From IMG/VR virus record IMGVR_UViG_3300021964_009400: 64,000 nt of DNA; one strand, written 5' to 3'. The position numbers and the translations under genes were made by a program. Position 1 is the first letter of the stretch. Each line of letters begins with the position of its first letter. Source of the DNA: a virus. Its lineage: Duplodnaviria; Caudoviricetes. The notes beneath the pieces were generated by a model, which had not been told where the DNA came from, did not search any database, and worked only from the letters and a program-made list of their open reading frames with translations. Below are positions 2-57,020 of the stretch, piece after piece.

Positions 2-2392
2 TCTATCTATGGAGATAAACTTACAAAGATTTACAAGTTTAAAAAAGATGATACAAACCTTTTTGAATCAGATGTACCAGAAACTACAAGAGCTTTAGTA
101 GATTTATATTCGGATTCCGATGAACCATCTACTGGTCATGTAATTCTCACATACGATATTGAGTGTGAAATGGAAAGTGGATTACCAGACCCACAAGAAG
201 CAAAAAATGAAATTACTTCTATTGCACTTCATGATTCAGCTACCAATCAATATTGGGTATTGGTTATGGATAAAGATAATATTCTTGAAGAAAAAACTAC
301 TGATAAATGTATTGTAATTCCTTTCAGAGATGAAAGAGATATGTTGATGAAATATTTGGAATTATATGAGTATATCAACCCTTCAATAGTGACGGGTTGG
401 AATATTGATTATTTCGATACACCAATGTTATATAACAGAATTAAAAGATTATTAGGACAAAGACAAGCAAATAGATTATCACCAATCGGACAGTGTTTCT
501 GGTCACCTTATAGAAAAAGATATTTTATGGCAGGTGTATCTTATTTGGATTATATAACATTGTATAAGAAATTTAACTATGGTGAACTTCCAAATTATCG
601 ATTAGATACAATAGGACAAATTGAATTAGGTAGAGGTAAGATTGAGTATCAAGGAAATCTTGACCAATTATTTAAAGAAGATATTGAAAAGTTTATTGAG
701 TACAACTTAGTAGATGTTGAGTTGGTAGTTGAATTTGATAAAAAACTTCAGTTCATTGATTTATGTAGAGGTATTACTCATGCGGGTCATGTACCTTATG
801 AAGATTTTGTTTATTCATCAAAATATCTCGAAGGTGCATTACTATCATTCCTTAGAAGAAAAAATTTAGTTGCACCAAATAAACCTGCTGATAGACAAGA
901 GAGAATGCAGGCGATTAGAGATAACAACGAAGAAAAGTTTATTGGGGCTTATGTAAAAGCACCAATCGTTGGAAAATATGATTGGGTATATGATTTAGAT
1001 TTAACTTCACTATATCCTTCAATCATTATGACTTTGAACATTTCACCAGAATCAAAGATTGGTAAGATTCAAGATTGGGATGCTAACAAGTTCGTTAAAG
1101 GTGAAGTTGATACTTATTATATCGGAGAGGATTCTATTTCAAAAGAAAACTTAAAAAAATACTTAGAACAATCAAAGTTTTCAGTTGCTTCTAATGGTGT
1201 TTTGTATAGAACTGATAAAGTTGGTTGTATACCTGATATTCTTAATCTTTGGTTTGACCAAAGAGTTGAGTTTAAAAATGAAATGAAAAAATATGGTAAA
1301 GCAGGTAATAAAGAAAAATATGCCTTTTACGCGAAAAGACAGTTGGTTCAAAAAATTCTACTCAACTCTCTTTATGGTGTTCTTGGTCTCCCTGCCTTTC
1401 GGTTCTATGATGTGGATAATGCGGAGGCAGTTACTACGACAGGTCAAACAGTTATTAAATCAACTGCGGATATGGGTAATATCAAATATAACAAAGAACT
1501 TAATACTCCTAATGCTGATTCTAACATTTATATTGATACTGATTCTGTATTCTTTTCCGCAGTTCCTTTGATGGACAAAAGAATCCCAAATTGGAAAGAA
1601 CAAGACCAAGATACAATTGCTGGTTATGTAAATGAGATTGCAGAAGAGATGCAAGATTACCTTAATGATTTCTACAATATACTTTCAAAAAAAGTTCTAA
1701 ATGTTGATAAAGATAAACATAGATTAGAGATTAAGAAAGAGTATGTTGCTAAAGCAGGATTGTGGATTGCAAAGAAAAGATATGCCCAATGGATTATTTC
1801 AGATAATGGTGTACCAGTAGATAAACTCGATGTAAAAGGTTTGGATGTTAAACGAAGTAGTTTCCCTAAGGCATTCCAAGAAATAATGGCAGATGTTCTT
1901 ATATCAATTCTAAGAGGACAATCGGAAGAAGAAATATCAGATAAAGTTTTGGCATTTAAAAAATCTATGATAAATCAAGATGTAGCTGTCATTGCAAAGA
2001 ATTCAGCAGTAAAAAATCTTAGAAAGTATATGCCAAAAGGTAAAAGAGAACGATTCTCTATAATGAAAGGAACACCTGCTCATGTTAAAGCTGCAATCCT
2101 TTACAATGATTGTTTACAACATTTTAATGCACCATTCAAATATGAACCAATGAAAAATGGTGATAAAGTAAAATGGGTTTACCTTAAAGATAATCCTCTT
2201 GGAATCGATGGATTAGCATTTACAGGTTATTCAGACCCACCAGAGATAGAAAAATTTATTCAAACTTATATTGACCACAATAAAATATTTGAAAGAGAAC
2301 TCAAACACAAACTACAAGATTTCTTCGATGCAATCGGTTGGGGAGATGTTGTGAGTGAACAAAGAACGGCTGAAAAGTTTTTTAGTTTTTAG
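2..2392 (+). CDS. Family B DNA polymerase (T4 gp43-like), 5' partial
   Basis: The frame is open from base 2, upstream of the track ATG at 170, and includes ExoI YDIECE. Also has ExoII GWNIDYFD, ExoIII YNLVDV, region II DLTSLYPS, region III KILLNSLYG and region I YIDTDS. Confidence 0.95.
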   Translation, partial: SIYGDKLTKIYKFKKDDTNLFESDVPETTRALVDLYSDSDEPSTGHVILTYDIECEMESGLPDPQEAKNEITSIALHDSATNQYWVLVMDKDNILEEKTTDKCIVIPFRDERDMLMKYLELYEYINPSIVTGWNIDYFDTPMLYNRIKRLLGQRQANRLSPIGQCFWSPYRKRYFMAGVSYLDYITLYKKFNYGELPNYRLDTIGQIELGRGKIEYQGNLDQLFKEDIEKFIEYNLVDVELVVEFDKKLQFIDLCRGITHAGHVPYEDFVYSSKYLEGALLSFLRRKNLVAPNKPADRQERMQAIRDNNEEKFIGAYVKAPIVGKYDWVYDLDLTSLYPSIIMTLNISPESKIGKIQDWDANKFVKGEVDTYYIGEDSISKENLKKYLEQSKFSVASNGVLYRTDKVGCIPDILNLWFDQRVEFKNEMKKYGKAGNKEKYAFYAKRQLVQKILLNSLYGVLGLPAFRFYDVDNAEAVTTTGQTVIKSTADMGNIKYNKELNTPNADSNIYIDTDSVFFSAVPLMDKRIPNWKEQDQDTIAGYVNEIAEEMQDYLNDFYNILSKKVLNVDKDKHRLEIKKEYVAKAGLWIAKKRYAQWIISDNGVPVDKLDVKGLDVKRSSFPKAFQEIMADVLISILRGQSEEEISDKVLAFKKSMINQDVAVIAKNSAVKNLRKYMPKGKRERFSIMKGTPAHVKAAILYNDCLQHFNAPFKYEPMKNGDKVKWVYLKDNPLGIDGLAFTGYSDPPEIEKFIQTYIDHNKIFERELKHKLQDFFDAIGWGDVVSEQRTAEKFFSF

Positions 2393-2395
2393 AAT

Positions 2396-3742
2396 ATGAG
2401 ATTATTATTAGGAGATTGTTTAGATAAACTGAAAGAACTTGATGACAATAGTGTAGATAGTATTGTTACAGACCCACCTTATGGTTTATCCTTTATGGGT
2501 AAGAAATGGGATTACGATGTTCCTTCACAAGAAATCTTTGAGGAATGTTTAAGAGTATTAAAACCTGGTGGATATCTACTTTCATTCGCAGGTTCAAGAA
2601 CTTATCACAGAATGGCAGTTAGAGTAGAAGATGCAGGGTTTGAAATACGAGACCAGATAATGTGGATATATGGTAGTGGGTTTCCAAAATCACTTAATAT
2701 AGGAAAAGCAGTAGATAAAAAGAATGGTGTTAAAGGGGATGTTATTGGTACACGAAAAGTTACATCATCCGATATTGGTCAAAAGAGTGGTTGGAATGAA
2801 CTTAACACAGACAGAGGTGATTATGAATATAGAGAAATAATGAATGAATACGCGGGTTGGGGAACTGCTCTTAAACCAGCACACGAACCAATCGTTATGG
2901 CAAGAAAACCACTTTCAGAAAAAACGATAGTTGATAATGTATTAGAATGGGGAACAGGTGGAATAAACATAGATGAGAGTAGAATATTGACTACTGATAA
3001 TCTTGGTGGAGGTGCAACAAATGGTTCAGTATTAGATATTGAAGGATTTGATAGACCGTGGATGCATGATGAAGAAAAGATGAAAGAGTTTGGTGAGAAA
3101 ATGAAACAAAAAGTAGAACACGCTCAAACTCTTGGTAGATTTCCTGCAAACATAATCTTTGATGAAGAAGCTGGTAAAATCTTGGATGAACAGAGTGGTA
3201 TATCCAAATCCACAGGTGGTAGAAGTGGAAACAAAGAAGGAGTTGGTCAAAATGGAATATATGGTCAATACAACGGAGAAGTAAGAGATGAAAATCCTGG
3301 TCTTGGTGATATAGGTGGAGCATCTCGTTTCTTTTATTGTCCTAAAACATCAAAGATAGATAGGAATGAAGGATTAGAAGGTTTTGAGGAAAAGAAATCT
3401 CGTAAATGGAGAGATGATAAAGGAATGAAACTCACGGGTAGTGGTAATCCAAGAAACGAAATGAGTAAAAACTTTCACCCAACGGTCAAACCAACTGATT
3501 TAATGCTCTATCTCATTAGATTAGTGACACCGAAAGGTGGAACAACCCTTGACCCTTTTATGGGTAGTGGTTCAACAGGAAAAGCAGCAGTAAGGGGTGG
3601 GTTTGATTTCATAGGAATAGAAAGAGAAAAAGAATATATGGAGATTGCAGAAGCAAGAATTCAGTATGAAATAGATAATCCTTACAATGAAGAAAAAGGA
3701 GAAAGAATAAAAATAAATAAAAATGCAAATAAATTTTGGTAA
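2396..3742 (+). CDS. DNA amino-methyltransferase (N6A/N4C, beta class)
   Basis: TDPPY near the N-terminus; HPTVKP and DPFMGSGSTG near the C-terminus. Confidence 0.9.
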   Translation: MRLLLGDCLDKLKELDDNSVDSIVTDPPYGLSFMGKKWDYDVPSQEIFEECLRVLKPGGYLLSFAGSRTYHRMAVRVEDAGFEIRDQIMWIYGSGFPKSLNIGKAVDKKNGVKGDVIGTRKVTSSDIGQKSGWNELNTDRGDYEYREIMNEYAGWGTALKPAHEPIVMARKPLSEKTIVDNVLEWGTGGINIDESRILTTDNLGGGATNGSVLDIEGFDRPWMHDEEKMKEFGEKMKQKVEHAQTLGRFPANIIFDEEAGKILDEQSGISKSTGGRSGNKEGVGQNGIYGQYNGEVRDENPGLGDIGGASRFFYCPKTSKIDRNEGLEGFEEKKSRKWRDDKGMKLTGSGNPRNEMSKNFHPTVKPTDLMLYLIRLVTPKGGTTLDPFMGSGSTGKAAVRGGFDFIGIEREKEYMEIAEARIQYEIDNPYNEEKGERIKINKNANKFW

Positions 3743-3745
3743 AAA

Positions 3746-3777
3746 TTTGGATATGTCAAAAATTATTCGTATATTTG
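3746..3777 (+). promoter_or_regulatory. Bacteroidetes primary-sigma promoter (-33/-7)
   Basis: TTTG-N20-TATATTTG upstream of the sliding clamp gene. Confidence 0.75.
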
Positions 3778-3808
3778 TACAACTATAAATTTTAATTAGA
3801 ATAATAAT

Positions 3809-4534
3809 ATGGAAAAACAATCATTAAATCGCTTCGTATCGAAGTACAATCTTGCAGGTTTAGTAGAATCTGTAAAATGGGAATCTAAGGAAGGTTCTCT
3901 TACAACATCATTCATTTCAGATGATAAATCTGTTTTGGGTAGTGTTACTATGAAAGAGTTTGATAATTCAGATGCAACTTTTGGTGTATATGATACTTCA
4001 AAACTTACAAAAATGTTATCAGTATTAGGAAATGATGTTGATTTCTCAATCAATGATATTGATGGTAAACCAGTATCTTTAAAATTCAAAGATGGTTCAA
4101 CATCGGTAAATTATATGTTAGCTGATTTATCAGTTATCCCTAATGTACCTGATTTAAAACAATTACCAGAGTTTGATACTGAAATTAAATTAGATTCAAA
4201 CTTTATAAACAAATTCATCAAAGCTAAAGGTGCTTTACAAGATGAAAACAATTTTACTTTTACTTGTGGTGATGGTGAGAAAGGAAGTGGACAAATTATC
4301 TTAGGATATTCTAATATCAATACAAATAGAATTAACATTGATGTTGATTGTACTTGTTCAAAAGATAAAGTAGAACCAATTTCTTTTTCAGCAACATATC
4401 TAAAAGAGATATTAGTTGCAAATAAAGAAGCAACAGATGCTACTTTGAAAATTTCATCTCAAGGATTGGCACACATTTCATTTTCAATAGATAATTACGA
4501 ATCAAATTATTATCTTGTTGAAATCCAAAGTTAA
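3809..4534 (+). CDS. Sliding clamp (T4 gp45-like)
   Basis: 241 aa; FGVYDTSKLTKMLS resembles the gp45 FGIYDL motif; lies beside PolB with clamp-loader genes nearby. Confidence 0.75.
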   Translation: MEKQSLNRFVSKYNLAGLVESVKWESKEGSLTTSFISDDKSVLGSVTMKEFDNSDATFGVYDTSKLTKMLSVLGNDVDFSINDIDGKPVSLKFKDGSTSVNYMLADLSVIPNVPDLKQLPEFDTEIKLDSNFINKFIKAKGALQDENNFTFTCGDGEKGSGQIILGYSNINTNRINIDVDCTCSKDKVEPISFSATYLKEILVANKEATDATLKISSQGLAHISFSIDNYESNYYLVEIQS

Positions 4535-4558: not shown

Positions 4559-6208
4559 ATGAAAAAGTATTTTTACGAAGTAAGTAAATTTTCCGAATAT
4601 AAATCCAATAAAACTTATCATCAGTTACTTCAAATGACTGATGATGAGTTTACTGATTGGGCAAAGTTGATTCGTAAAGATGTCATAGATGCTTGGGATA
4701 ATCATGGACAACCTCCTGTTAAAGGAAAAGATGAAAATCAGATTATTAATCACTTTGGTAAATTAAAAAATCATGATTGTGATTTTTTTACTAAAGATGA
4801 TAGTGATGATGAATCGTTGGGTATTCTTAAAAACTTTAATAAAAGTCAAAGTGTGGTAAATCAATTTTTCCCCACAATGTTAAAAACAAGAATATCAGAT
4901 GGTGCATCTGCAGAAGGTGGATTATCTATTTATGATTATTTTGCTGAAGATAGTTTAGCAGAAGCTTTTGTAAAGGTAATGAAAAGAGCCGTTAAGAGAG
5001 ATTCTATGTATGCTTGGTGTCGTTCATTAACAACTATTAAAGATGATAATCCTTTTTGGAATGGTCAAACACCATATAAGTTTATCAAAGATGTTCATGA
5101 TGGTAAAATATTTAAAGGAAAATGGGAAAAATATGATATTGTACTTTCAAAAACAACAGAACCTTCAATTAGAAAATATGGTCCTCTAAATGAAAATAAA
5201 CAAACATATGGAGTAATATTATTTTTACATGCTAAACAAGTAAAAAGATTAGTAAAAGAAGGATATTTAAATAAAGGTCATATTTCAAATCTTGGAGATA
5301 TTGAAGATTCAAGAACACAAAAAAATGGTAAAGTAGTAAAATACCTTTATAATATTAGATGGTACAATACAACTGAAGGTATTTTTCCTAAAATTCTGCA
5401 AGCTTTTAGATTAGGATTAGGACAACCAGCAGTAAACTTTCCTGCATTAACTGCTAAGTGGATTTACGAAAAATATACTGACCATATAGAAGAAGATGAA
5501 TCATTACACATTTATGATTCATCAGCAGGGTGGGGTGGTAGAATTATTGGTGCTATGAGTAGTAGAAAGAAAACTCATTATATTGGTACAGACCCTAATC
5601 CAGATAACTTTATTGATGATTTGGGTATTTCTAGATATGAATATATGGCAGATTATTATAATAAAAACTGTGTAGATACTCATTCAGATAAATTAACAAG
5701 TTTCTTTGAAGTAGAAAATCAAGGAAACACTTATGAATTGTTTCAAGATGGTTCAGAGCTAATTCACAAAAATCCAAACTTTCAAAAGTATAAAGGTAAA
5801 TTAGATTTATTCTTTACATCACCACCATACTTTAATAGAGAACAATATTCTCAAGATGAAAATCAATCGTTTAAAGCATATTCTCAATATGATGATTGGA
5901 GAGAAAACTTTTTAAAGCCTACTCTTACAACAATTTATGATTATATGAAAAGTGATAGATATATTCTTTGGAATATTGCATCAATTAAAATTAATAAGAA
6001 TACTTACTTTGATTTAGAAGGAGATTCTATTAAAATTCTAAAAGACCTTGGTGCAGAATATAAAGGTAAACTAAAAATGACAATGGCAGCTATGATTGGT
6101 GCTAATGTAAATAAAAGAGAATCAATTGAAAGTGGTATTAAAAACATGGTTCAAGTTGGAAGTACATGGTACAAATATGAACCTATATTCGTATTTTATA
6201 AAAAATAA
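4559..6208 (+). CDS. Putative DNA methyltransferase (SPPY type, alpha order), paralog 1
   Basis: Motif I YDSSAGWGGR precedes catalytic FTSPPYF. Confidence 0.75.
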   Translation: MKKYFYEVSKFSEYKSNKTYHQLLQMTDDEFTDWAKLIRKDVIDAWDNHGQPPVKGKDENQIINHFGKLKNHDCDFFTKDDSDDESLGILKNFNKSQSVVNQFFPTMLKTRISDGASAEGGLSIYDYFAEDSLAEAFVKVMKRAVKRDSMYAWCRSLTTIKDDNPFWNGQTPYKFIKDVHDGKIFKGKWEKYDIVLSKTTEPSIRKYGPLNENKQTYGVILFLHAKQVKRLVKEGYLNKGHISNLGDIEDSRTQKNGKVVKYLYNIRWYNTTEGIFPKILQAFRLGLGQPAVNFPALTAKWIYEKYTDHIEEDESLHIYDSSAGWGGRIIGAMSSRKKTHYIGTDPNPDNFIDDLGISRYEYMADYYNKNCVDTHSDKLTSFFEVENQGNTYELFQDGSELIHKNPNFQKYKGKLDLFFTSPPYFNREQYSQDENQSFKAYSQYDDWRENFLKPTLTTIYDYMKSDRYILWNIASIKINKNTYFDLEGDSIKILKDLGAEYKGKLKMTMAAMIGANVNKRESIESGIKNMVQVGSTWYKYEPIFVFYKK

Positions 6209-7836
6209 TGAATTATTACTATCAAAGAAATAAGTTTATAAATTTTAAATCAAATATTCTTTTTCACGAATTACTTAATACTAATGATTTTGAATTTGAA
6301 GATTGGGCAAAAACTTTGCGTAAAGAAGTTACTGAACAATGGGATAGATTTGGAAATCCACCTGTTATAGGGAAAAATCATAGTGATATTATTTCATCAT
6401 TTAGTAAGTTAAAATCCAATGATTGTGATTTTCTTATTAAAGATAGTACAGATTCAGAATCTTTAGGTATTATCAAAAACTTCAATAAAGATGCAGCAGT
6501 TGTAAATCAGTTTTTTCCTACAATGTTAAAAACTAAAATATCAAGTGGTAAATCAGCTGAAGGAGGATTATCAATATATGATTATTTTGGTGACCCAACA
6601 ATGGAAGAACAATTTGTTAAGATTATGAAACGAGCAGTTAGACGAGATTCGATGTATGTTTGGTCTCGTTCACTTGTTAATAAGAAAACTGAAAATCCTT
6701 TTTGGAATGGACAGAGTGGATATGATTTTATCAAAGATGTTAAAGATGGAAAAGTATTTACAGGTAAATGGGAAAATTATGATATCTATTTAACTAAATC
6801 AAAGGATAGTACATTTGATAATTATGGAACATTCAATGATGATTATGTTGGATTTACAAACATATATCTTTCAGCAACTGAAGTAAATCAACTATTAGAT
6901 AAAGGTTACTTAAATTCAAGACAAGTTTCTAATATAGATAAAGTTGAAGATTCCTCAACTTCCAAAAGTGGTACCGTAACAAAGTATTCTTATATGGTTC
7001 GTTGGTATGATAAAACAGAAGGATTGTTTCCTAATATGTTGAGAGTAATACGATTGAGTTGTGGTCAAGCAGCAGTAAACTTCCCATCATTGACTGCAAA
7101 ATTTTTATATGAAAAATATACATCACATATTAAACAAGAAGAACCTTTGGTAGTTTATGATTCATCAGCAGGTTGGGGTGGTAGAATCATCGGAGCGATG
7201 AGTTCTCGTAAGAAAATTCATTATGTTGGTACAGACCCTAATCCTGATAACTATTTAAAAGAATTAAATAAATCTCGTTATGAATATGTAGCAGATTTTT
7301 ATAACAAAAATTGTATAGATAATCATTCAAATAAACTTACATCATTCTTTAATGTAGAAAAACAAGGTAATACTTATGAGTTATTCCAAGATGGTTCAGA
7401 GTTAATCTCAAATAATCCAAACTTTCAAAAGTATAAAGGTAAACTAGATATTGCATTTACTTCACCACCATACTTTAACAGAGAGCAATATTCACAAGAT
7501 GAGAAACAATCTTTTAAAGCTTATAGTGAGTATAAGGATTGGAGAGATAACTTCTTAAAACCTACTCTAACAACGATTTACGAGTATCTAAAGAATGATA
7601 GATATATCTTATGGAACATTGCCGATATAAAGATTGGAAAATCAATATATTATCCACTTGAACAAGATTCAATTGATATCTTAAATGGGTTAGGATGTGA
7701 ATACAAAGGTAAACTTAAAATGTTGATGACAAGGATGGTTGGGTTGGACCCATCTAAAAGTGGTATAAAGAACTCTGTCAAATATGGTGGGAAAGTATAT
7801 AAATTTGAACCAATATTTGTTTTTTATAAACCTTAA
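6208..7836 (+). CDS. Putative DNA methyltransferase (SPPY type, alpha order), paralog 2
   Basis: Same motifs as 4559..6208 and collinear with it; TAATG stop/start overlap. Confidence 0.75.
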   Translation: MNYYYQRNKFINFKSNILFHELLNTNDFEFEDWAKTLRKEVTEQWDRFGNPPVIGKNHSDIISSFSKLKSNDCDFLIKDSTDSESLGIIKNFNKDAAVVNQFFPTMLKTKISSGKSAEGGLSIYDYFGDPTMEEQFVKIMKRAVRRDSMYVWSRSLVNKKTENPFWNGQSGYDFIKDVKDGKVFTGKWENYDIYLTKSKDSTFDNYGTFNDDYVGFTNIYLSATEVNQLLDKGYLNSRQVSNIDKVEDSSTSKSGTVTKYSYMVRWYDKTEGLFPNMLRVIRLSCGQAAVNFPSLTAKFLYEKYTSHIKQEEPLVVYDSSAGWGGRIIGAMSSRKKIHYVGTDPNPDNYLKELNKSRYEYVADFYNKNCIDNHSNKLTSFFNVEKQGNTYELFQDGSELISNNPNFQKYKGKLDIAFTSPPYFNREQYSQDEKQSFKAYSEYKDWRDNFLKPTLTTIYEYLKNDRYILWNIADIKIGKSIYYPLEQDSIDILNGLGCEYKGKLKMLMTRMVGLDPSKSGIKNSVKYGGKVYKFEPIFVFYKP

Positions 7837-8062: not shown

Positions 8063-10771
8063 ATGAGAAATTTAATGTTAAGTCTGTTATTAGTTCTTGG
8101 AACAATGACAGCAACTTTTGCACAAATTAGTGGAAAAGTTTATGATGTAGAAACTAATGCTCCACTACCAGGTGCAACAATATTACATGAGGGAACATCT
8201 CATGGAACTGTGACTGGTTTTGATGGAACATTTATTTTCGATGTATCTCCAGGAACAACCCTTGTTGTTTCTTATTTAGGGTACGAAACTGCAGTAATTG
8301 AATCAAGTTCAGAAACAATCATTGGATTAGTTCCTGATTTAAATGTACTTGGTGAAGTTGTTGTAAGCTCTGGTGTAATTGATGTTGCAAAGGTGAGAGA
8401 AACACCAGTTGCAGTTTCAACTATTTCACCAGCAGAAATCGCACTCAAAGTAGGTAACCAAGAGTTTCCAGAGATTATGAATAGAACACCAGGTGTCTAT
8501 GCTACCAAACAAGGTGGTGGATATGGTGATTCGAGAATCTCTTTAAGAGGATTTGACCAAAGAAACACATCTTTCCTTATCAATGGGCAACCAGTTAACG
8601 ATATGGAAAATGGATGGGTTTATTGGTCTAACTGGCAAGGTTTAACAGATGTTGCAAGTGGTATCCAATTACAAAGAGGTTTAGGTGCTTCAAGATTAGC
8701 AGTACCATCAGTAGGTGGAACTGTATCAATCTTTACAAAAGCCGCTGAGGCAAGAGCTGGTAGTTCAGTTGCTCAATCATTTGGTAATGATGGGTATTTT
8801 AAAACTACTGTATCTCACTCAACTGGTTTAAATGATAATGGATGGGCTTCATCTTTCTTACTTTCAAGATGGGAAGGTGATGGATATATCTATAATACAA
8901 GTGGTGAGGGTTACACTTACTTCTTTGCATTAGGATATGCACCTGAAGATTCAGACCACTCAGTTAACTTTTCTTTCTTAGGTGCTGGTCAATGGCACCA
9001 CCAAAGAGATGTTTGGGTTTCTATTAGAGATTACCAAAACTTTGGTACTGAAGGAATTGATAGAAGATGGAACACTAATGGTGGTGTTTACCAAGGAGAA
9101 GAATATTCTTTAAGAAGAAACTTCTACAATAAACCATTAGCAACTCTTAACTGGGATTGGGATATTTCTGATAACCTTAAACTTGCAACATCATTATATG
9201 GTTCAGCAGGTAGAGGTGGAGGAACAGGTCCAAGAGGTAGAAACTACTACAACTCGGAAACTGATATCTTACCTTTCAGAAAAGACCTTACAGAACACTA
9301 CCTAGAAAATGGTAGAGGTTCAAGAACACCAGACGGATTTATTGATTTTGATGCAATTGTTGCTTATAACCAAGCTAGTACAGATGGTTATAGTGGTGAT
9401 TTACCATTCGGAGGTCAGTTAATTGCATCTAATGGATTTAAAAACGATGGTGTAAATAGAGCTGGTCTTATTAGAAGAGCATCTATGAACTCTCATGACT
9501 GGGTTGGAGCAATCTCTAATTTAGAATATGAAAGTGGAAATTGGAAAACTTCAATTGGTATCGATTTAAGAAATTATAAAGGATATCATTATAGAGTATT
9601 AAATGATTTATTAGGATTTGATGGTTATTACTCAACTGGTAATAAGAACTCAGCTGGACAAATCATCAATACTTTAGTTGAAGCATCTCCATTCAAAGAT
9701 ACAGGAATTAAAGGACCAAAAATCGATTACTATAATATTGGTAAAGTAGGTTGGCAAGGTGTAAATGGTTTAGTTGAATATAACAACTCCACTATTTCTG
9801 CAGTATTACAAGCAGGTTTATCTAATAAATCATTCCAGAGAATCGATTACTTCGACCAACCAGGTAACCCTGAATCAGATACAGAAAATGTAGGTGGTGG
9901 ATATGTAAAAGGTGGTGCAAACTATAATATTGATGATAGACAAAATGTATTCTTCAATGCTGGTTTCATCTCAAGACAACCAAACTTTGATGCAGTATTC
10001 CCTAACTATGCAAACAATGTTAATCCTGATTTACAAAATGAAGAAATTAAATCAATTGAAATCGGATATGGATTCATTGGTAATAACTTCAAAGCAAATG
10101 TAAACGCATACTCAACAGTATGGGGTAATAGATTTGTTTCAAGAAGTTTATCTAACCAACAAGGTGTAGATGGGTTTGCACAATTTAAAGATATCGATGT
10201 TGTACACAATGGTATCGAAGTTGAAGCAACTTATGACCCAACTTCTAACTTAAGATTAAAAGGTATGTTATCAATCGGTGATTGGAGATATACTAAAGAT
10301 TTTGATGCAGAGTTATTTGATGATAACCAACAATCAATCGGTACAGGTACACTTTACCTTAAAGATGCAAAAGTTGGTGATGCAGCTCAATTCGTTTCTT
10401 ACTTAGAAGCTGATTATAAATTAGGTAGTAAGTTAAATGTAGATTTAGGATATAGATTTGTAGATAATCTTTTCGCAGATTACTCAATTACTGATTCAGA
10501 ATTTACAAAACCTAATAATGCAGGTGCATTGAAGTTACCATCTTATGGATTAGTTGATTTAGGTTCAACACTTAGATTTAACTTATTCGGAAATGATACT
10601 TCATTCAGAGTAAATATCAATAACTTATTTGATACTTACTACATTGCTGAATCTAATTCTAACATCCATGCTTCTGCAGGTTCAGAAACTTGGAATGGAA
10701 TTGATACGAGAAACTCAGTATGGTTCGGATTCGGACGTACATTTAATGCTTCTCTTAAATACAGATTCTAA
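8063..10771 (+). CDS. TonB-dependent outer-membrane receptor (Bacteroidetes type)
   Basis: Signal peptide; CarboxypepD_reg-like domain (ISGKVYD...PLPGATI...GTVTGFDGTF); plug (ISLRGFDQRNTSFLINGQPVND); barrel ending NINNLFD...GRTFNASLKYRF with terminal Phe. Confidence 0.93.
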   Translation: MRNLMLSLLLVLGTMTATFAQISGKVYDVETNAPLPGATILHEGTSHGTVTGFDGTFIFDVSPGTTLVVSYLGYETAVIESSSETIIGLVPDLNVLGEVVVSSGVIDVAKVRETPVAVSTISPAEIALKVGNQEFPEIMNRTPGVYATKQGGGYGDSRISLRGFDQRNTSFLINGQPVNDMENGWVYWSNWQGLTDVASGIQLQRGLGASRLAVPSVGGTVSIFTKAAEARAGSSVAQSFGNDGYFKTTVSHSTGLNDNGWASSFLLSRWEGDGYIYNTSGEGYTYFFALGYAPEDSDHSVNFSFLGAGQWHHQRDVWVSIRDYQNFGTEGIDRRWNTNGGVYQGEEYSLRRNFYNKPLATLNWDWDISDNLKLATSLYGSAGRGGGTGPRGRNYYNSETDILPFRKDLTEHYLENGRGSRTPDGFIDFDAIVAYNQASTDGYSGDLPFGGQLIASNGFKNDGVNRAGLIRRASMNSHDWVGAISNLEYESGNWKTSIGIDLRNYKGYHYRVLNDLLGFDGYYSTGNKNSAGQIINTLVEASPFKDTGIKGPKIDYYNIGKVGWQGVNGLVEYNNSTISAVLQAGLSNKSFQRIDYFDQPGNPESDTENVGGGYVKGGANYNIDDRQNVFFNAGFISRQPNFDAVFPNYANNVNPDLQNEEIKSIEIGYGFIGNNFKANVNAYSTVWGNRFVSRSLSNQQGVDGFAQFKDIDVVHNGIEVEATYDPTSNLRLKGMLSIGDWRYTKDFDAELFDDNQQSIGTGTLYLKDAKVGDAAQFVSYLEADYKLGSKLNVDLGYRFVDNLFADYSITDSEFTKPNNAGALKLPSYGLVDLGSTLRFNLFGNDTSFRVNINNLFDTYYIAESNSNIHASAGSETWNGIDTRNSVWFGFGRTFNASLKYRF

Positions 10772-10823: not shown

Positions 10824-11555
10824 ATGAAAAATATAAATGGTTTAATAACAATAGTGATTCCTTGTTATAACGAGGAAAGATACATTTATAATACTCTATG
10901 GAAAATTTCAAGACAAAAATTTGAAGGTATTATACGAGTTATAATAGCCGATGCTAATTCAACTGATAATACCATTCAACACATTTCAAAGGCATCTCAA
11001 GATTTCAAAAACTTAAAAATTGAAATTATTGAAGGTGGAAAAGTAGGATATGCAAGAAATAATGGAGCATCTCATGTAACAACATCCCATATTCTTTTTA
11101 TGGATGCAGATTCAACACTACATGGAGAAAATATTTTTATAGAGACTCAAAAATATCTAAATGATTATGATATTATATCAGCAAAACAAAAATCAGTTGC
11201 TATAAATGATTTCAAATCAGTTTGGACTTATAAAATATTAGATTGGATTAGAAAAATAATGCCAATCACCTTTTGTACAGGTTGTTTCTTTTTAATATCA
11301 AAAAAGAAATTTAATGAACTTGGTGGATTTGATGAAACCTTACAAAACTCAGAAGATTTTTGGTTATCAAAACAGATACCAAAAAGAAAATTTAAAATAC
11401 TCGATGAGTACATAGGACAAGATAATAGAAGATTTAAAAAGTTTGGTTATTGGAATTTTATAAAAATAAACTTACTAAATTATTTAAATTTTTGGAATAT
11501 AAAATGGTTTAAAAAAGATATAGGATATTGGAAAGAGTATGAGCAAGTTAATTAA
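10824..11555 (+). CDS. Glycosyltransferase family 2
   Basis: ITIVIPCYNEE, IIADANSTDNT, ARNNGA, FMDAD, GGFDE...SED. Confidence 0.9.
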   Translation: MKNINGLITIVIPCYNEERYIYNTLWKISRQKFEGIIRVIIADANSTDNTIQHISKASQDFKNLKIEIIEGGKVGYARNNGASHVTTSHILFMDADSTLHGENIFIETQKYLNDYDIISAKQKSVAINDFKSVWTYKILDWIRKIMPITFCTGCFFLISKKKFNELGGFDETLQNSEDFWLSKQIPKRKFKILDEYIGQDNRRFKKFGYWNFIKINLLNYLNFWNIKWFKKDIGYWKEYEQVN

Positions 11556-12084
11556 TTTATTCGGTGGAGCAGGTATAGGTAAATCTTCAATAGCAAATGG
11601 GATTACTTATAAACTAAAAAAGAAACACATTAGTTGTAACAATCCATACGAATTTCCTAAAAGATTAGCTTGGGATAATAACATACCAGCAATATCAGAC
11701 CAACTTTATGTATTTGCAAACCAACATAGAGGAATAGCAGAATGTTATGGTAAAGTAGATTATATAGTAATTGATTCACCAATTTTATTTTCTACCATAT
11801 ATCACAGATATTATACACAAGGTTATCCTGCAAACTTTTACAGAGAATCTTTTCACAATTTAGTGATAGATTTACATAATCAATATGATAGTATTAACAT
11901 ACTTTTAGAACGAGGAGAAACAGTACATAATGATAAAGAAAGATTTCAAAACTATGAAGAAGCAGTTGCAATCGATTCATTGTGTAAACAAGTACTAGAA
12001 GAAAATAATGTTCCCTACCATACAATAAAGGTAGGTCCAAAATCAGTAAAAAAAATTATTAAATTATTAGGAAAATCCAAATAA
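11539..12084 (+). CDS. P-loop kinase (NadR/AAA_28-like)
   Basis: GGAGIGKS Walker A; VIDSP Walker B-like. Confidence 0.7.
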   Translation: MSKLINLFGGAGIGKSSIANGITYKLKKKHISCNNPYEFPKRLAWDNNIPAISDQLYVFANQHRGIAECYGKVDYIVIDSPILFSTIYHRYYTQGYPANFYRESFHNLVIDLHNQYDSINILLERGETVHNDKERFQNYEEAVAIDSLCKQVLEENNVPYHTIKVGPKSVKKIIKLLGKSK

Positions 12085-12098
12085 TTTTCGTATATTTA
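12067..12098 (+). promoter_or_regulatory. Bacteroidetes-type promoter variant
   Basis: TTAG-N20-TATATTTA upstream of 12122 and the clamp loader. Confidence 0.6.
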
Positions 12099-12121
12099 CA
12101 TAACAATAAAAAAATTAAATT

Positions 12122-12343
12122 ATGAACTTAACACAAATTGCACAAAAGTTTAGAGTATCTGAAAATTTTCTAAACTCAAAAGAAGATGGATTGTTAATTG
12201 TACAATCATCATTAGAAGATATCATCGTTGAATTAAACCAAAATGAAAAACGAGGTATCGATGAAAATAAAAAACAAAGTATTATTACTAAATTAGAGAA
12301 ATTATCAGATTTCTGTAAAGAAGTAAAAAACTCATCGTTCTAA
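12122..12343 (+). CDS. Hypothetical protein
   Basis: 73-aa ORF after a promoter, abutting the next gene. Confidence 0.6.
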   Translation: MNLTQIAQKFRVSENFLNSKEDGLLIVQSSLEDIIVELNQNEKRGIDENKKQSIITKLEKLSDFCKEVKNSSF

Positions 12344-12344
12344 T

Positions 12345-13289
12345 ATGGCATTTTTTGAAGATACAACAAATGAAGAGGTAAACAACTCTCTATGGGTAGA
12401 GAAATATAGACCTCGTAAATTAACAGAATATGTAGGTAATGAACACCTTAAACAAAAGGTTGCAGATTATCTTCAGAGTGGTGATGTCCCTCACCTTTTA
12501 TTTTTTGGTAAAGCTGGAACAGGTAAAACAACTTTAGCAAAGTTAATTGTTAATTCAATTAATTGTGACCATATTATAATAAACGCATCTGATGAAAACA
12601 ATGTAGATACAGTTAGAAACAAAGTAAAAGGTTTTGCATCAACTGTTGGTTTTAAAGATATGAAAGTAGTAATACTTGATGAGTTTGATTATATGACTCC
12701 AAATGCACAAGCAATTCTTAGAAATCTAATGGAAACTTTCTCAAAACATTGTAGGTTCATTCTAACTTGTAATTATGTTGAAAAAGTTATTTCACCTATT
12801 AGAAGTAGAACACAAGAGTTTCAGATTGTACCACCATCTAAAAAAGAAGTTGCGGTACAAATATCACAAATCTTAGGTAAAGAAGGTGTAAGTTTTCAAC
12901 CAACAGACCTTGTACCTATCATTGATAGTTCATATCCTGATATTAGAAAGATTATTAACACTTGTCAACTAAATTCTACCAAAGGACAATTAAAACTCGA
13001 TACAACCTCTGTAATCGATTCAGATATTAAATCAAAGGTGGTTGAGATTTTAAAATCAAATGATGATAAGAAAAATAAATGGAAGAATATTAGACAAGCA
13101 GTTGCAGATGCAAAAATACAAGATTTTACTGAATTGTATTCTTTTCTTTATGAAAAGGTAGATGAGTATGGAAGTGGGAATACATCTAATATTATTCTTA
13201 TAATTTCAGAATCACAACATAAGGATGCATTGGTAGTGGATAAAGAAATAACATTTATGAGTTGTATAATACAAATAGTTGCACTATGA
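12345..13289 (+). CDS. Clamp loader ATPase (RFC small subunit / T4 gp44-like)
   Basis: LWVEKYRP, GKAGTGKTT, INASDE, ILDEFD, FILTCNY, IRSR. Confidence 0.92.
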   Translation: MAFFEDTTNEEVNNSLWVEKYRPRKLTEYVGNEHLKQKVADYLQSGDVPHLLFFGKAGTGKTTLAKLIVNSINCDHIIINASDENNVDTVRNKVKGFASTVGFKDMKVVILDEFDYMTPNAQAILRNLMETFSKHCRFILTCNYVEKVISPIRSRTQEFQIVPPSKKEVAVQISQILGKEGVSFQPTDLVPIIDSSYPDIRKIINTCQLNSTKGQLKLDTTSVIDSDIKSKVVEILKSNDDKKNKWKNIRQAVADAKIQDFTELYSFLYEKVDEYGSGNTSNIILIISESQHKDALVVDKEITFMSCIIQIVAL

Positions 13290-13606
13290 CAAATAAAGAA
13301 ATAAACAAATTAATGGAGATTCAATATCTCAAAGGTAGATTAGATGAATTATATAAAGGATTTGTTCCTCACATTTCAACTACAAATAATAGAATAGTAG
13401 ATTATCGTATATCAAAATATGAAAATAAACTTAAAAATATAGATGAAACTGCATTTTATCTTTATCAAGTTGAAAGAGAAAATATTAGAGTTTCAAAGAA
13501 AAAATCAAAAGAAAAAATTAAAGATTTACTAACAGAGATTTTGCCATCAATCTATGATAATAAACTCAAAGAAAAGGTTGAGAAACAACTAAACACTTAT
13601 ACATAA
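13286..13606 (+). CDS. Hypothetical protein
   Basis: Likely start is the ATG at 13286, an ATGA overlap with the upstream stop; the track start at 13262 is probably too long. Confidence 0.55.
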   Translation: MTNKEINKLMEIQYLKGRLDELYKGFVPHISTTNNRIVDYRISKYENKLKNIDETAFYLYQVERENIRVSKKKSKEKIKDLLTEILPSIYDNKLKEKVEKQLNTYT

Positions 13607-13607
13607 A

Positions 13608-13916
13608 ATGATAAAATTAGAAACAGATTCACTTGATGTATTATTAAAAACACAACCTAAACTAATGGTAATGTTTGGTACTGATTGGTGTGGGAATTGT
13701 GATATTCTTAAACCAGAGTTTGAAAGAGTTTCAAAAGAACATAAAAATATTCCTTTTATACTTATAAATCCAGATTCATCACCTAAAAGTAGAAGTTTAA
13801 TTGATTTAACTAATATACCAATGGTGGTTGCATTTAAGAGTGGAAAAGAAGTTCATAAAGAATTTGGAAACGAAAAAGAAATAGTAACAAAAGTTTTTGA
13901 TAGATTATTAGGATAA
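13608..13916 (+). CDS. Thioredoxin
   Basis: WCGNC active site, thioredoxin size, NIPM cis-Pro loop. Confidence 0.85.
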   Translation: MIKLETDSLDVLLKTQPKLMVMFGTDWCGNCDILKPEFERVSKEHKNIPFILINPDSSPKSRSLIDLTNIPMVVAFKSGKEVHKEFGNEKEIVTKVFDRLLG

Positions 13917-13939
13917 TTCAAATATTTTTCGTATATTTG
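13908..13939 (+). promoter_or_regulatory. Bacteroidetes-type promoter
   Basis: TTAG-N20-TATATTTG. Confidence 0.65.
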
Positions 13940-13959
13940 TAAAATAAAACTTAAAAGAT

Positions 13960-14178
13960 ATGAAATACGACCCTAAAAACCCACTTTCTGATAAAGAGCT
14001 CGATAAACTAGGTAAAGAAGATTTTGATGGATTTCTTGAATATCTAGATGGTATGAATGAACACAAGAAAAGAAAAGGAAATAAAAGAGTAAAAGAATTT
14101 AAAGAAAAGAAACGAGAAGTACTCAGAAAGACTGGTATTACAAAAATAAAAACGAATCGTGACCAATGGTTCGATTAA
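13960..14178 (+). CDS. Hypothetical protein
   Basis: 72-aa charged ORF after a promoter. Confidence 0.55.
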   Translation: MKYDPKNPLSDKELDKLGKEDFDGFLEYLDGMNEHKKRKGNKRVKEFKEKKREVLRKTGITKIKTNRDQWFD

Positions 14179-14189
14179 ACAAATAAATT

Positions 14190-14459
14190 ATGGCACAAAT
14201 AATAGGAGGTGGACAACAACCTCAACAACCAAAATTAGATTTAAAACAAGCCAAAGAAATGGTTTGCACAAGTAACGAATGTGATGGTACTGTATTTATA
14301 CAAGGTACAAAATTCTTAAAGGTATCTAGATTAGCAACAGGTAACTCTAAAGACGCAATTATACCAGTAGAATTATATCTATGTGGAGATTGTGGTGAAA
14401 TTAATGCAGATTTATTACCAGATGAACTAAAACCAATTATAACAAATTTGGATGGCTAA
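14190..14459 (+). CDS. Small putative Zn-binding protein
   Basis: CTSNEC and CGDC cysteine pairs. Confidence 0.6.
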   Translation: MAQIIGGGQQPQQPKLDLKQAKEMVCTSNECDGTVFIQGTKFLKVSRLATGNSKDAIIPVELYLCGDCGEINADLLPDELKPIITNLDG

Positions 14460-14901
14460 AACATTATTTGACCATATAAAAGCAATTACCCAATTTCAAG
14501 ACCCAAACTATTGGGATAAACTTGAAGAGGCAGATAAAAAAACTTGGAGTAACTATATGATACACCGGTTTTTATCTATGAATTCAGATTGGATTGAAAC
14601 AATTTCTGAAATTCAACCATTTACGCAAACACTAGAACCTAAACAATTATATCAACTTTTAATTGGATTACTTCCAAAAGGAAGGCACTACTTAAGATAT
14701 ACAAAAGGAAAAAAAGAAACTAAATACGAAAGTTTTTTAGTAGAATTAATTCAACAAGATTTCCAATGTTCTTCTTCAGAGGCACTTGACTATTGTGAGA
14801 TTCTTTATGCAACACGAGAAGGAAGAGAAAATATTAAATATTTATGTGAGAAATATGGTGTTGATAAAAAAGAAATCACAAAGTTAAAATTAAAGGTATG
14901 A
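14452..14901 (+). CDS. Clamp loader small subunit (T4 gp62-like)
   Basis: LFDHIKAIT, YMIHRFLSM, LLPKGRHYLRY; size and context near the gp44-like gene. Confidence 0.65.
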   Translation: MAKTLFDHIKAITQFQDPNYWDKLEEADKKTWSNYMIHRFLSMNSDWIETISEIQPFTQTLEPKQLYQLLIGLLPKGRHYLRYTKGKKETKYESFLVELIQQDFQCSSSEALDYCEILYATREGRENIKYLCEKYGVDKKEITKLKLKV

Positions 14902-16139: not shown

Positions 16140-16145
16140 TAAATA

Positions 16146-16177
16146 TTTGGATTTCTCATTTATTTTTCGTATATTTA
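16146..16177 (+). promoter_or_regulatory. Bacteroidetes-type promoter
   Basis: TTTG-N20-TATATTTA. Confidence 0.65.
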
Positions 16178-16196
16178 CATAGTAAATAAAAGTATT

Positions 16197-17057: not shown

Positions 17058-17087
17058 TATTTTTTGTAGTTTTTATAAATTTATATA

Positions 17088-17095
17088 TATTTATA
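17088..17095 (+). promoter_or_regulatory. Putative late promoter motif TATTTATA
   Basis: Intergenic; heads the glycosyltransferase cluster. Confidence 0.45.
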
Positions 17096-17118
17096 TAAAA
17101 TAACAAACAACAAAAGTT

Positions 17119-17313
17119 ATGGTAGATACAAAACTAACAACCGTAAAGATAATTAAAGATATTTATGCTAAATTTAAAAGATTATCTTTCGATTCAAACA
17201 TCACACTTCAAAAATTAGTCAACAGGTCAGTTGATAAATATAATGAAGATGATGCATTTAGAACTGAAATAAACAGTTATGCAAATTTAGAAACGAGTGG
17301 CTCGCAATTTTAA
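17119..17313 (+). CDS. Small hypothetical protein (possible ribbon-helix-helix)
   Basis: LTTVKI strand then helices (TLQKLVNRSVDKY). Confidence 0.5.
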   Translation: MVDTKLTTVKIIKDIYAKFKRLSFDSNITLQKLVNRSVDKYNEDDAFRTEINSYANLETSGSQF

Positions 17314-17316
17314 AAA

Positions 17317-17454
17317 ATGAAACAACAAGATAACGGTAATCCACAACTTAACCAAACTCGTAATGAATTCAACGATAGAGTTGAAACTAAAAAGTATTTA
17401 GGACAAACTATGAGAGTTAAGTTAAACAATTACAGAAGATTTAGAACAATTTAA
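17317..17454 (+). CDS. 45-aa hypothetical protein (not in track)
   Basis: Hand translation MKQQDNGNPQLNQTRNEFNDRVETKKYLGQTMRVKLNNYRRFRTI fills the gap exactly. Confidence 0.5.
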   Translation: MKQQDNGNPQLNQTRNEFNDRVETKKYLGQTMRVKLNNYRRFRTI

Positions 17455-17464
17455 ATAAAGGTTA

Positions 17465-54649: not shown

Positions 54650-54651
54650 AA

Positions 54652-56960: not shown

Positions 56961-56997
56961 AAATTAGAAAAGCCTATCAAAAAATTTTAATATACTA

Positions 56998-57005
56998 TAC
57001 TTATA
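56998..57005 (+). promoter_or_regulatory. Putative late promoter motif TACTTATA
   Basis: Intergenic, before 57021. Confidence 0.4.
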
Positions 57006-57020
57006 ATAAAGGTTATTACT

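What the first reader, a model, noticed from the sequence alone, without database searches (positions are those of the whole stretch)
2357..4534. DNA methyltransferase shares the polymerase's PIP-like C-terminal tail: a clamp-riding methylase?
Seen: PolB ends QRTAEKFFSF* and the next gene, a DPPY methyltransferase, ends NKNANKFW*. The two align as x-x-x-A-x-K-F-(F/W). The MTase sits between the polymerase and the sliding-clamp gene. Known: T4/RB69 gp43 binds the gp45 clamp through a C-terminal aromatic peptide, and PCNA partners use QxxhxxFF PIP boxes, including the eukaryotic maintenance methylase DNMT1. Inference: this phage tethers a methylase to the replication clamp so new DNA is methylated at the fork.
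Basis: partly seen in the sequence, partly recalled or inferred. Interest (0 to 1): 0.72.

Follow-up and report, generated by a model that had tools for sequence, protein, structure and literature searches.

The report
Clamp-docking tail on phage DNA methyltransferase
In this uncultured marine jumbo phage, a DNA methyltransferase ends in the same short Phe-Phe/Phe-Trp peptide as the phage's DNA polymerase, so it probably hooks onto the phage's PCNA-like sliding clamp and modifies new DNA as it is made; binding itself is untested.

Summary
PolB (2..2392) ends QRTAEKFFSF. The next gene (2396..3742), an intact DPPY N6/N4 DNA methyltransferase, ends NKNANKFW. ORF 3809..4534 is a PCNA-fold sliding clamp (AF2 pLDDT 96.7; Foldseek TM 0.74-0.77 to PCNA), and the clamp-loader genes lie downstream.

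Of 120 methyltransferase homologues (55-100% identity), 119 end in [KNQ]-F-[FW] plus 0-2 residues, on at least four different linkers. Some copy the polymerase ending (KFFSF, TAEKFFSF). Four homologues from clamp-less phages lack the extension.

The tail also occurs on other DNA-modifying enzymes of clamp-bearing relatives:
- Other PF01555 methyltransferases carry it.
- A Mom-family enzyme carries it, and 119 of 120 of its homologues end in [FY]W or a close variant.
- In two distant clamp-bearing phages (Microcystis phage Mel-JY01, huge phage LR756508) it sits beside a PolB KFF tail.

In a complete 276-kb relative, only PolB and the methyltransferase ORFs carry it on a linker.

A co-fold of the clamp trimer with the tail gave weak support only (0.55 against 0.00 for controls). 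Binding is therefore inferred, at about 65%.

I found no paper describing this. This scan has noted the same idea before on other phage and virus DNA.

The parts
2..2392 (+). Family B DNA polymerase (T4/RB69 gp43 homologue), 5' end cut by the window edge
   Evidence: Pfam DNA_pol_B and exo1, phrog_262 E 4e-187; PDB T4/RB69 gp43 E about 1e-77
2360..2389 (+). PolB C-terminal tail QRTAEKFFSF, a PIP-like Q-x-x-A-x-x-F-F followed by S-F. It lies beyond the last residue that aligns with gp43.
   Evidence: TAEKFF[STN]F is kept in all roughly 30 related PolB genes. FF tails also occur in distant lineages: QKFFSM, SKFFNFK, TDFFSF, NEFFTWE, AEEFFSF, SQFFGF, GQFFE.
2396..3742 (+). N6/N4 (beta-class order, DPPY) DNA methyltransferase, 448 aa
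   Evidence: PF01555 at 115 bits, phrog_67 E 1e-77
2471..2482 (+). Catalytic motif IV, DPPY (aa 26-29)
3557..3571 (+). AdoMet-binding motif I, FMGSG (aa 388-392)
3674..3715 (+). Polar Asn/Glu/Lys-rich linker after the last core helix. It is absent from homologues of clamp-less phages.
3716..3739 (+). Methyltransferase C-terminal 8-mer NKNANKFW, the proposed clamp-docking peptide
   Evidence: It matches the N-x-N-[AL]-x-x-F-F boxes of PolB tails in other lineages.
3745..3777 (+). Intergenic promoter-like motif ATTTGG-N19-TTCGTATATTTG upstream of the clamp gene
   Evidence: It is conserved after the methyltransferase or Mom stop codons in L041, L029 and L033, but is not significantly enriched in the window.
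3809..4534 (+). PCNA-fold sliding clamp, 241 aa
   Evidence: in Microcystis phage Mel-JY01 the homologue lies between PolB and the clamp loader
12345..13289 (+). Clamp loader large (AAA+) subunit
   Evidence: phrog_168 E 1e-81
14452..14901 (+). Clamp loader small subunit
   Evidence: phrog_225 E 4e-16

Best explanation
The methyltransferase is an active-looking N6-adenine/N4-cytosine DNA methyltransferase. Its catalytic core is followed by a polar linker of about 22 residues that ends in x-K-F-W at the carboxyl terminus.

I propose that this peptide docks into the same hydrophobic pocket of the phage's trimeric PCNA-like clamp that holds the polymerase tail (Q-x-x-A-x-K-F-F-S-F). The ring has three pockets, so the methyltransferase could ride beside the polymerase. 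It could also load onto clamps left on freshly made DNA. Either way it would scan and methylate new phage DNA quickly and processively, before host restriction enzymes see unmodified sites.

The same tag is used by other DNA-modifying enzymes of this phage group: further PF01555 methyltransferases and a Mom-type enzyme. The clamp would thus act as a tool-belt for DNA modification.

Shown here: gene identities, the clamp fold, conservation of the tail, and its specificity and distribution. Inferred: that the polymerase tail binds the clamp (by homology with T4/RB69 gp43), that the methyltransferase tail binds the same site, and the biological purpose.
For: 1. The clamp is real: AF2 pLDDT 96.7, PCNA fold at TM 0.74-0.77, a profile hit to RB69 gp45 at E 8e-5, and clamp-loader genes downstream.

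2. PolB is a gp43 homologue with its tail at the gp43 position. That T4-family clamp partners gp43, gp33 and gp55 bind through C-terminal peptides is established knowledge (review PMC9690074).

3. Of 120 methyltransferase homologues at 55-100% identity, 119 end in [KNQ]F[FW] plus 0-2 residues. Among 73 distinct tails, F at position 0 is present in 72, while linker columns vary. Endings include KFW, NFW, KFF, KFFSF, KFFNF, QFFG, and TAEKFFSF, which equals the PolB tail.

4. On a tree built from the core alone, ending types FW, FF and FFxF switch at least 20 times while 99 of 100 rows keep the motif.

5. Codons differ while residues are kept: AAATTTTGG, AAGTTTTTTAGTTTT, AAGTTTTTCTCCTTT, AAATTTTTC.

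6. Controls: homologues in four phages taken as clamp-less (Pontimonas phiPsal1, Bacillus BSP18, Klebsiella Chronis, Mycobacterium Quallification; my own knowledge, their genomes were not searched for a clamp here) stop right after the core helix, with no linker and no aromatic pair.

7. Distant clamp-bearing phages repeat the pairing. Microcystis phage Mel-JY01 has PolB ...SKFFNFK and a methyltransferase ...AKFFNMDKKEN encoded 110 kb away. Huge phage LR756508 has PolB ...QKFFSM and five methyltransferases ending H-x-F-W plus 0-2 residues, or HDWW.

8. Other families in related loci carry the tail:
   - Three further PF01555 methyltransferases in L018 and one in L041.
   - A YunG-like 155-aa protein.
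   - A Mom-family enzyme. Of 120 Mom homologues, 119 end in an aromatic pair: [FY]W in about 114, the rest KFF, [KR]YF or KFFDI. They sit in modules with PolB, a clamp and a clamp loader, where PolB ends AEEFFSF or SQFFGF.

9. Specificity: in the complete 276-kb relative, only PolB and the methyltransferase ORFs carry the tail on a linker, out of 347 ORFs. The methyltransferase there is not next to PolB or the clamp.

10. Co-fold of the clamp trimer with the last 44 residues gave 'weak support': score 0.55 (runs 0.47-0.64), best of 3 controls 0.00.
   - That mark was reached by 58 of 80 solved complexes and 2 of 110 mismatched pairs.
   - At 0.60 or under it was reached by only 7 of those 80 and by both mismatches that passed.
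   - The runs agree in at least 80% of contacts, and the partner pLDDT is at least 64.
   - PCNA-PIP and gp45-peptide complexes are solved, so the pass may be from memory.
Against: - No binding measurement exists, and the co-fold is weak by the tool's own calibration.
- The methyltransferase tail departs from the canonical PIP box (N for Q, A at position 4, W at position 8).
- It also differs systematically from PolB's ending: mostly FW or FF at the very end against FFxF. The two could therefore have different partners or affinities.
- Not every methyltransferase or Mom paralogue in clamp-bearing phages has the tail: three of four further PF01555 genes in Mel-JY01, and one Mom and one methyltransferase in L085/L087.
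- Expected clamp clients such as the 5'-3' exonuclease lack it.
- The Mom controls are not clean. Listeria phage LP-013 Mom ends ...VFYQ and Polaribacter phage P12002L Mom ends ...CDW.
C-terminal tags in this phage therefore need not point to the clamp.
Confidence: 0.65

Rival explanations
1. The shared tail docks onto a common hub other than the clamp. Candidates are another replisome or nucleoid protein, a compartment or packaging receptor, or a chaperone-like scaffold. PolB and the DNA-modifying enzymes would then be co-localised, but not through the ring.
For: The co-fold is only weak support. FEN-type exonucleases lack the tail.
Against: PolB is a gp43 homologue with its tail at the exact gp43 position, and gp43's tail binds gp45 (established; PMC9690074). 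The motif is PIP-like, with two adjacent aromatics three residues after a small or hydrophobic residue. Every lineage carrying tails that was examined here also encodes the PCNA-like clamp. The co-fold controls scored 0.00.
Confidence: 0.15
2. The tail binds the clamp, but not to make methylation ride the fork. It could compete with PolB, acting as a regulator or hand-off signal, or it could simply concentrate the enzyme on clamps abandoned behind the fork (post-replicative marking).
For: The methyltransferase and Mom endings (FW or FF at the very end) differ consistently from PolB's FFxF, which fits a different affinity. T4 gp33 and gp55 show that clamp clients can serve purposes other than replication.
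Against: Nothing here separates this reading from the main one. Only DNA-modifying enzymes carry the tail, which fits substrate access better than regulation.
Confidence: 0.1
3. The tail is intrinsic to the enzymes (DNA contact, autoinhibition, oligomerisation) or to the DNA (a recombination scar or an overlapping regulatory element), and its likeness to PolB's tail is coincidental.
For: In L029 the PolB and MT1 3' ends plus the following junction are repeated at the DNA level, so tail-coding DNA can act as a recombination site. A promoter-like TTTGG element lies just after the stop codon.
Against: The residues are kept with different codons and in different downstream contexts, including 66 kb from PolB in G001. 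Unrelated folds (PF01555, Mom, YunG-like, PolB) share the tail. The ending type switches at least 20 times while the motif persists. Homologues in clamp-less phages lack the whole extension.
Confidence: 0.07

Closest known systems
C-terminal clamp-binding peptides of T4/RB69 gp43, gp33 and gp55 (gp45 clients)
   Same: A phage-encoded trimeric clamp; a family B polymerase homologous to gp43 with a short hydrophobic or aromatic peptide at the extreme C-terminus; and further non-polymerase proteins ending in a copy of that peptide.
   Different: The extra clients here are DNA-modifying enzymes rather than transcription factors. The motif is K-F-F/W (PIP-like), not the T4 LDFL type. The clamp is closer in fold ranking to PCNA than to gp45. 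Binding is untested.
Eukaryotic DNMT1-PCNA coupling through a PIP box
   Same: A DNA methyltransferase carries the clamp-interaction motif used by replication proteins, giving preferential access to newly replicated DNA (PMC9690074).
   Different: DNMT1 is a C5 maintenance enzyme with an internal N-terminal PIP box. Here the enzyme is an amino-methyltransferase (and Mom-type enzymes) with a C-terminal, non-canonical box in a bacteriophage. The likely purpose is anti-restriction or full genome modification, not epigenetic inheritance.
ParB-dependent and ParB-fused phage DNA-modification enzymes
   Same: Phage DNA-modifying enzymes are coupled to a DNA-sliding protein. phrog_67, the best PHROG for this methyltransferase, has a 743-position profile of which the enzyme matches only positions 125-353. 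ParB-dependent T-dioxygenases are described in PMC13229309.
   Different: There the slider is a CTP-dependent ParB clamp, fused or co-encoded. Here there is no ParB domain, and the proposed link is a terminal peptide to the replication clamp.

Membership tests
PF01555 N6_N4_Mtase (beta-class amino DNA methyltransferases) | Pfam model above the gathering score | tested here: met
   115.3 bits against a cut-off of 26.7
PF01555 N6_N4_Mtase (beta-class amino DNA methyltransferases) | Catalytic (D/S)PP(Y/F) motif IV and FxGxG AdoMet motif I, with IV before I | tested here: met
   DPPY at aa 26-29 and FMGSG at aa 388-392
PF01555 N6_N4_Mtase (beta-class amino DNA methyltransferases) | Methyl transfer to DNA, with base and sequence specificity | not testable with these tools
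   Needs an enzyme assay or a methylome
PCNA/gp45-type sliding clamp | Two topologically repeated beta-alpha-beta-beta-beta domains joined by an interdomain connector | tested here: met
   AF2 pLDDT 96.7; Foldseek top 50 hits are all PCNA, TM 0.70-0.77
PCNA/gp45-type sliding clamp | Sequence relationship to known clamps | tested here: met
   Profile hits to RB69 gp45 at E 8e-5, PCNA 3p91 at 2e-4 and T4 gp45 at 0.015. These are marginal but consistent. There is no Pfam hit.
PCNA/gp45-type sliding clamp | Genomic association with the polymerase and a clamp loader | tested here: met
   Window; Mel-JY01 order PolB-clamp-HolB-clamp loader A; L087
PCNA/gp45-type sliding clamp | Closed homotrimeric ring that encircles DNA | not tested
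   Three copies were co-folded (pLDDT 87-88 for the clamp chains), but no ring geometry was returned
Clamp-binding C-terminal peptide / PIP-like client | Short motif with two adjacent aromatic residues at or near the C-terminus, matching the cognate polymerase's tail | tested here: met
   NKNANKFW against QRTAEKFF(SF); orthologues end KFFSF, KFFNF or TAEKFFSF
Clamp-binding C-terminal peptide / PIP-like client | Strict PIP consensus Q-x-x-[ILM]-x-x-[FY]-[FY] | tested here: not met
   The methyltransferase has N1, A4 and W8. PolB has Q1 and F7F8 but A4. The motif is therefore PIP-like only.
Clamp-binding C-terminal peptide / PIP-like client | Motif conserved while the preceding linker diverges | tested here: met
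   119 of 120 homologues, at least four linker classes; at least 20 switches of ending type on the core tree
Clamp-binding C-terminal peptide / PIP-like client | Motif present only where the matching clamp is encoded | tested here: inconclusive
   Methyltransferase: 4 of 4 homologues from phages I took to be clamp-less (not searched for a clamp here) lack it, and 3 of 3 clamp-bearing lineages have it. The Mom controls are ambiguous, ending ...VFYQ and ...CDW. The sample is small.
Clamp-binding C-terminal peptide / PIP-like client | Physical binding in the clamp's hydrophobic pocket | tested here: inconclusive
   Co-fold 'weak support': 0.55 against a best control of 0.00, with the calibration caveats given. 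No experiment.

The most novel reading that the evidence does not exclude
In a large clade of marine and freshwater T4-like and jumbo phages, the PCNA-like clamp is a general tool-belt for DNA modification. Several unrelated enzyme families (at least three PF01555 methyltransferase subfamilies, Mom-type enzymes, and perhaps others) have each acquired the polymerase's C-terminal F-F/F-W docking peptide and keep it. Methylation and hypermodification of the phage genome would then be mechanically coupled to replication. This would be a bacteriophage counterpart of DNMT1-PCNA that arose independently and repeatedly.
Probability: 0.5. Interest if true: 0.85.

Novelty: new variant of a known kind. 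Interest (0 to 1): 0.7.

Why it matters
A phage must modify every restriction site on each new genome copy faster than host nucleases can cut. How a 276-kb genome achieves this is not explained by free diffusion of orphan methyltransferases. A clamp-docking tail would give a simple mechanism, with the modification enzymes riding the replisome.

It would extend the list of phage clamp clients from the polymerase and transcription factors to DNA-modifying enzymes, and it would parallel DNMT1-PCNA in eukaryotes.

It is also practical. The terminal x-[KN]-F-[FW] tag is an easily searched marker for DNA-acting enzymes among unannotated phage genes. The tag-and-clamp pair could also be tested as a way to make DNA-modifying enzymes processive in vitro.

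I found no paper describing it in the held library. This scan's earlier AI notes reached the same idea on other phage and archaeal-virus DNA.

Tried and rejected
- A single-sequence AF2 model of the clamp was useless (pLDDT 38.5). It was replaced by the alignment-based model.
- No whole genome is held for the window. I used the complete relative G001 instead.
- Megablast of the first 8 kb against GenBank phages found nothing.
- The search for related loci with the clamp alignment failed because no stretch was conserved enough.
- The distant clamp P0233 gave no viral contig. Contigs for P0267 and P0233 were too short to show neighbours, although L077 gave one more PolB tail.
- Loci for P0241 and P0230 gave PolB tails but no methyltransferases. 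A strict co-variation test across lineages with different motifs could therefore not be done.
- Bacteroidota-type promoter pattern TTTG-N17-21-TAnnTTTG: 6 matches against 5.1 expected, not enriched. The longer intergenic motif gave 4 matches against 1.6, reached by 11 of 100 shuffles. I make no host claim from it.
- The Mom-family negative controls were ambiguous.
- The 2OG-Fe(II) oxygenase (KFFYK ending) and the 1735-aa nucleotidyltransferase fusion (GIFF ending) in G001 were rejected as tail carriers. Their endings lie in or against folded domains, with no polar linker.
- The two 545-aa paralogues after the clamp (ending FVFYK[KP]) were likewise not counted.
- Gene adjacency as evidence was rejected, because the order is not conserved.

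Full report
**What is there**

The window is all-plus-strand, about 29% G+C phage DNA. The methyltransferase protein is recorded on a contig of 278,535 bp. A complete relative (G001, 275,970 bp, CheckV 100%) was fetched.

- ORF 2..2392 is a family B polymerase (Pfam, phrog_262 E 4e-187). It is homologous to T4/RB69 gp43 at E about 1e-77. The alignment stops at residue 779 of 796, so the last 17 residues form a tail beyond the thumb, as in gp43. It ends QRTAEKFFSF.
- ORF 2396..3742 is a PF01555 DNA methyltransferase (115 bits) with DPPY (aa 26-29) and FMGSG (aa 388-392) intact. After its last core helix comes a polar stretch of 22 residues ending NKNANKFW.
- ORF 3809..4534 has no Pfam hit. With an alignment of 120 homologues, AlphaFold gives pLDDT 96.7. 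Foldseek's top 50 PDB hits are all PCNA (TM 0.70-0.77, E 1e-13). The profile also hits RB69 gp45 (8e-5), a PCNA (2e-4) and T4 gp45 (0.015).
- Clamp-loader subunits follow at 12345..13289 and 14452..14901.

The observation and all three gene identities are therefore confirmed.

**Is the tail conserved?**

- Forty-one related IMG/VR loci were fetched through the clamp. All of the roughly 30 PolB genes end TAEKFF[STN]F.
- The methyltransferase is an accessory gene. Only about 10 loci have it between PolB and the clamp. In G001 it lies 66 kb away, at 259 kb, with a split copy at 252 kb. Every copy nevertheless keeps the tail.
- Among the 120 best database homologues (55-100% identity), 119 end in [KNQ]-F-[FW] followed by 0-2 residues. 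The exception looks frameshifted at that point.
- There are at least four unrelated linker types. Endings include KFW, NFW, KFF, KFFSF, KFFNF, QFFG and, in one protein, TAEKFFSF, which is identical to the polymerase tail.
- On a maximum-likelihood tree built from the core with the last 30 residues removed, the ending type changes at least 20 times while 99 of 100 rows keep the motif.
- At the DNA level the residues are kept with different codons.

This pattern indicates selection on a terminal peptide, not inheritance of a neutral end.

**Controls**

- Homologues in four phages I took to be clamp-less (Pontimonas phiPsal1, Bacillus BSP18, Klebsiella Chronis, Mycobacterium Quallification; their genomes were not searched for a clamp here) end a few residues after the core helix, with no linker and no aromatic pair.
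- In GenBank phages the tblastn matches end at query residue 416-428, except for Microcystis phage Mel-JY01.
- Mel-JY01 is one of only two GenBank records with a homologue of this clamp (36% identity, between PolB and the clamp loader). There PolB ends SKFFNFK. The methyltransferase homologue, encoded 110 kb away, ends AKFFNMDKKEN.
- The other record, the 484-kb phage LR756508, has PolB ending QKFFSM and a cluster of methyltransferases ending HGFWSE, HEFWG, HNFWEK, HGFW and HDWW.

**Generality**

- In related loci, other DNA-modifying enzymes carry the tail:
  - Three further PF01555 methyltransferases in L018.
  - Another PF01555 methyltransferase in L041.
  - A YunG-like protein.
  - A Mom-family enzyme (NKFFDI).
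- L041 has four tail-bearing genes in a row directly upstream of the clamp.
- Of 120 Mom homologues, 119 end in an aromatic pair behind very variable linkers: [FY]W in about 114, the rest KFF, [KR]YF or KFFDI.
- Two of these were traced to replication modules with PolB (ending AEEFFSF or SQFFGF), the clamp and the clamp loader. There, only PolB, one Mom paralogue and a methyltransferase fragment carry the tail.
- PolB tails in further clamp lineages read NQNATDFFSF, NTNANEFFTWE and GQFFE. The window's methyltransferase 8-mer N-K-N-A-N-K-F-W therefore fits the wider box [QN]-x-x-[ALSVI]-x-x-F-[FW].

**Specificity**

In G001, 4 of 347 ORFs end [KN]F[FW] plus 0-2 residues, against 0.45 expected. 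They are PolB, two methyltransferase ORFs, and a 2OG-Fe(II) oxygenase whose ending is inside its Pfam domain.

**Binding**

One co-fold was allowed: the clamp in three copies with the last 44 residues of the methyltransferase, both supplied as alignments.

- The verdict was 'weak support', with a score of 0.55 (runs 0.47, 0.55, 0.64) and a best control of 0.00.
- That mark was reached by 58 of 80 solved complexes and 2 of 110 mismatches. At 0.60 or under it was reached by only 7 of those 80 and by both mismatches that passed.
- The runs agree in at least 80% of contacts, and the partner pLDDT is at least 64.
- Because PCNA-PIP and gp45-peptide complexes are solved, the pass may reflect memory.

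Binding therefore remains an inference, resting mainly on homology with gp43-gp45 and on the comparative pattern.

**Mechanism proposed**

A flexible linker presents x-K-F-W at the carboxyl terminus to the clamp pocket that PolB uses. With three pockets per ring, the enzyme can ride with the polymerase or occupy clamps left on new DNA, and methylate nascent phage DNA quickly.

I put this at about 0.65. Rivals are another hub (0.15), clamp binding for regulation or purely post-replicative use (0.10), and an intrinsic or DNA-level explanation (0.07).

Points against:
- Endings differ consistently between PolB (FFxF) and the modifying enzymes (FW or FF).
- Some paralogues lack the tail.
- The 5'-3' exonuclease lacks it.
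- The Mom controls are ambiguous.
- The genome has a second C-terminal tag, K-x-L-I, with an unknown hub.

**Comparison with what is known, and novelty**

It works like T4 gp43, gp33 and gp55 on gp45, and like DNMT1 on PCNA (PMC9690074). ParB-dependent phage modification enzymes are a looser analogue (PMC13229309). It is PIP-like but fails the strict PIP consensus.

Four full-text searches found no description of clamp-docking tails on phage methyltransferases or Mom enzymes.

The scan's earlier AI notes reached the same reading on other DNA: RB49-like coliphages, another uncultured T4-like phage, and a marine archaeal virus. I did not test those. One of them was later rated at 30% for the bold reading, which is why I keep the binding claim at 0.65 despite the broader evidence here.

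Verdict: a new variant of a known kind, with interest 0.7.

Noticed in passing
window 8063-10771: A 902-aa TonB-dependent receptor (CarbopepD_reg_2, Plug and barrel domains; G+C 35% against about 29%) sits inside the phage replication module. It is conserved at 70-90% identity in at least 14 related phage contigs, including the complete G001, so it is a phage gene and not an assembly chimera.
   Followed up: partly
window 4559-6208 and 6208-7836: Two tandem paralogues (549 and 542 aa) have no Pfam hit. Their C-terminal part weakly matches methyltransferase PHROGs and carries an SPPY motif. They are conserved in relatives and have no clamp-type tail.
   Followed up: partly
window 52226-63054: About ten consecutive ORFs end in K/N-x-L-I (KKSLI, NKSLI, KSSLI, PKNLI, FKSLI, KNNLI and similar). 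This is a second, different C-terminal tag in the same phage. Earlier notes of the scan describe it (e1-5362785).
   Followed up: no
window 10824-20410: Between and after the clamp and clamp-loader genes lie a glycosyltransferase, a dTMP kinase, a radical SAM enzyme, an exonuclease and two more glycosyltransferases. This may be a DNA or nucleotide modification block.
   Followed up: no
window 3745-3777, 13907-13939, 57601-57633; also L041, L029, L033 after the methyltransferase or Mom stop codons: A conserved intergenic motif ATTTGG-N19-TTCGTATATTTG looks like a promoter. It is not significantly enriched in the window (4 matches against 1.6 expected, reached by 11 of 100 shuffles).
   Followed up: partly
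L029:1520-2960: There is a tandem methyltransferase duplication. The PolB 3' end and the first methyltransferase's 3' end share the same DNA, AAGTTTTTTAGTTTTTAA, plus the following junction. The tail-coding DNA may double as a recombination site for gaining or duplicating cassettes.
   Followed up: partly
L037:333-800 and L038:2025-2492: A 155-aa protein with a sub-threshold YunG match ends EKEVNTKFW. It may be a further tail-bearing client of unknown function.
   Followed up: no
L085 (301-kb contig), 14686-20132: PolB is split into two ORFs with four genes between them (a DprA-like gene, a DUF559 gene and two unknowns). GIY-YIG and GmrSD_N genes lie nearby, a mobile-element-rich replication module.
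   Followed up: no
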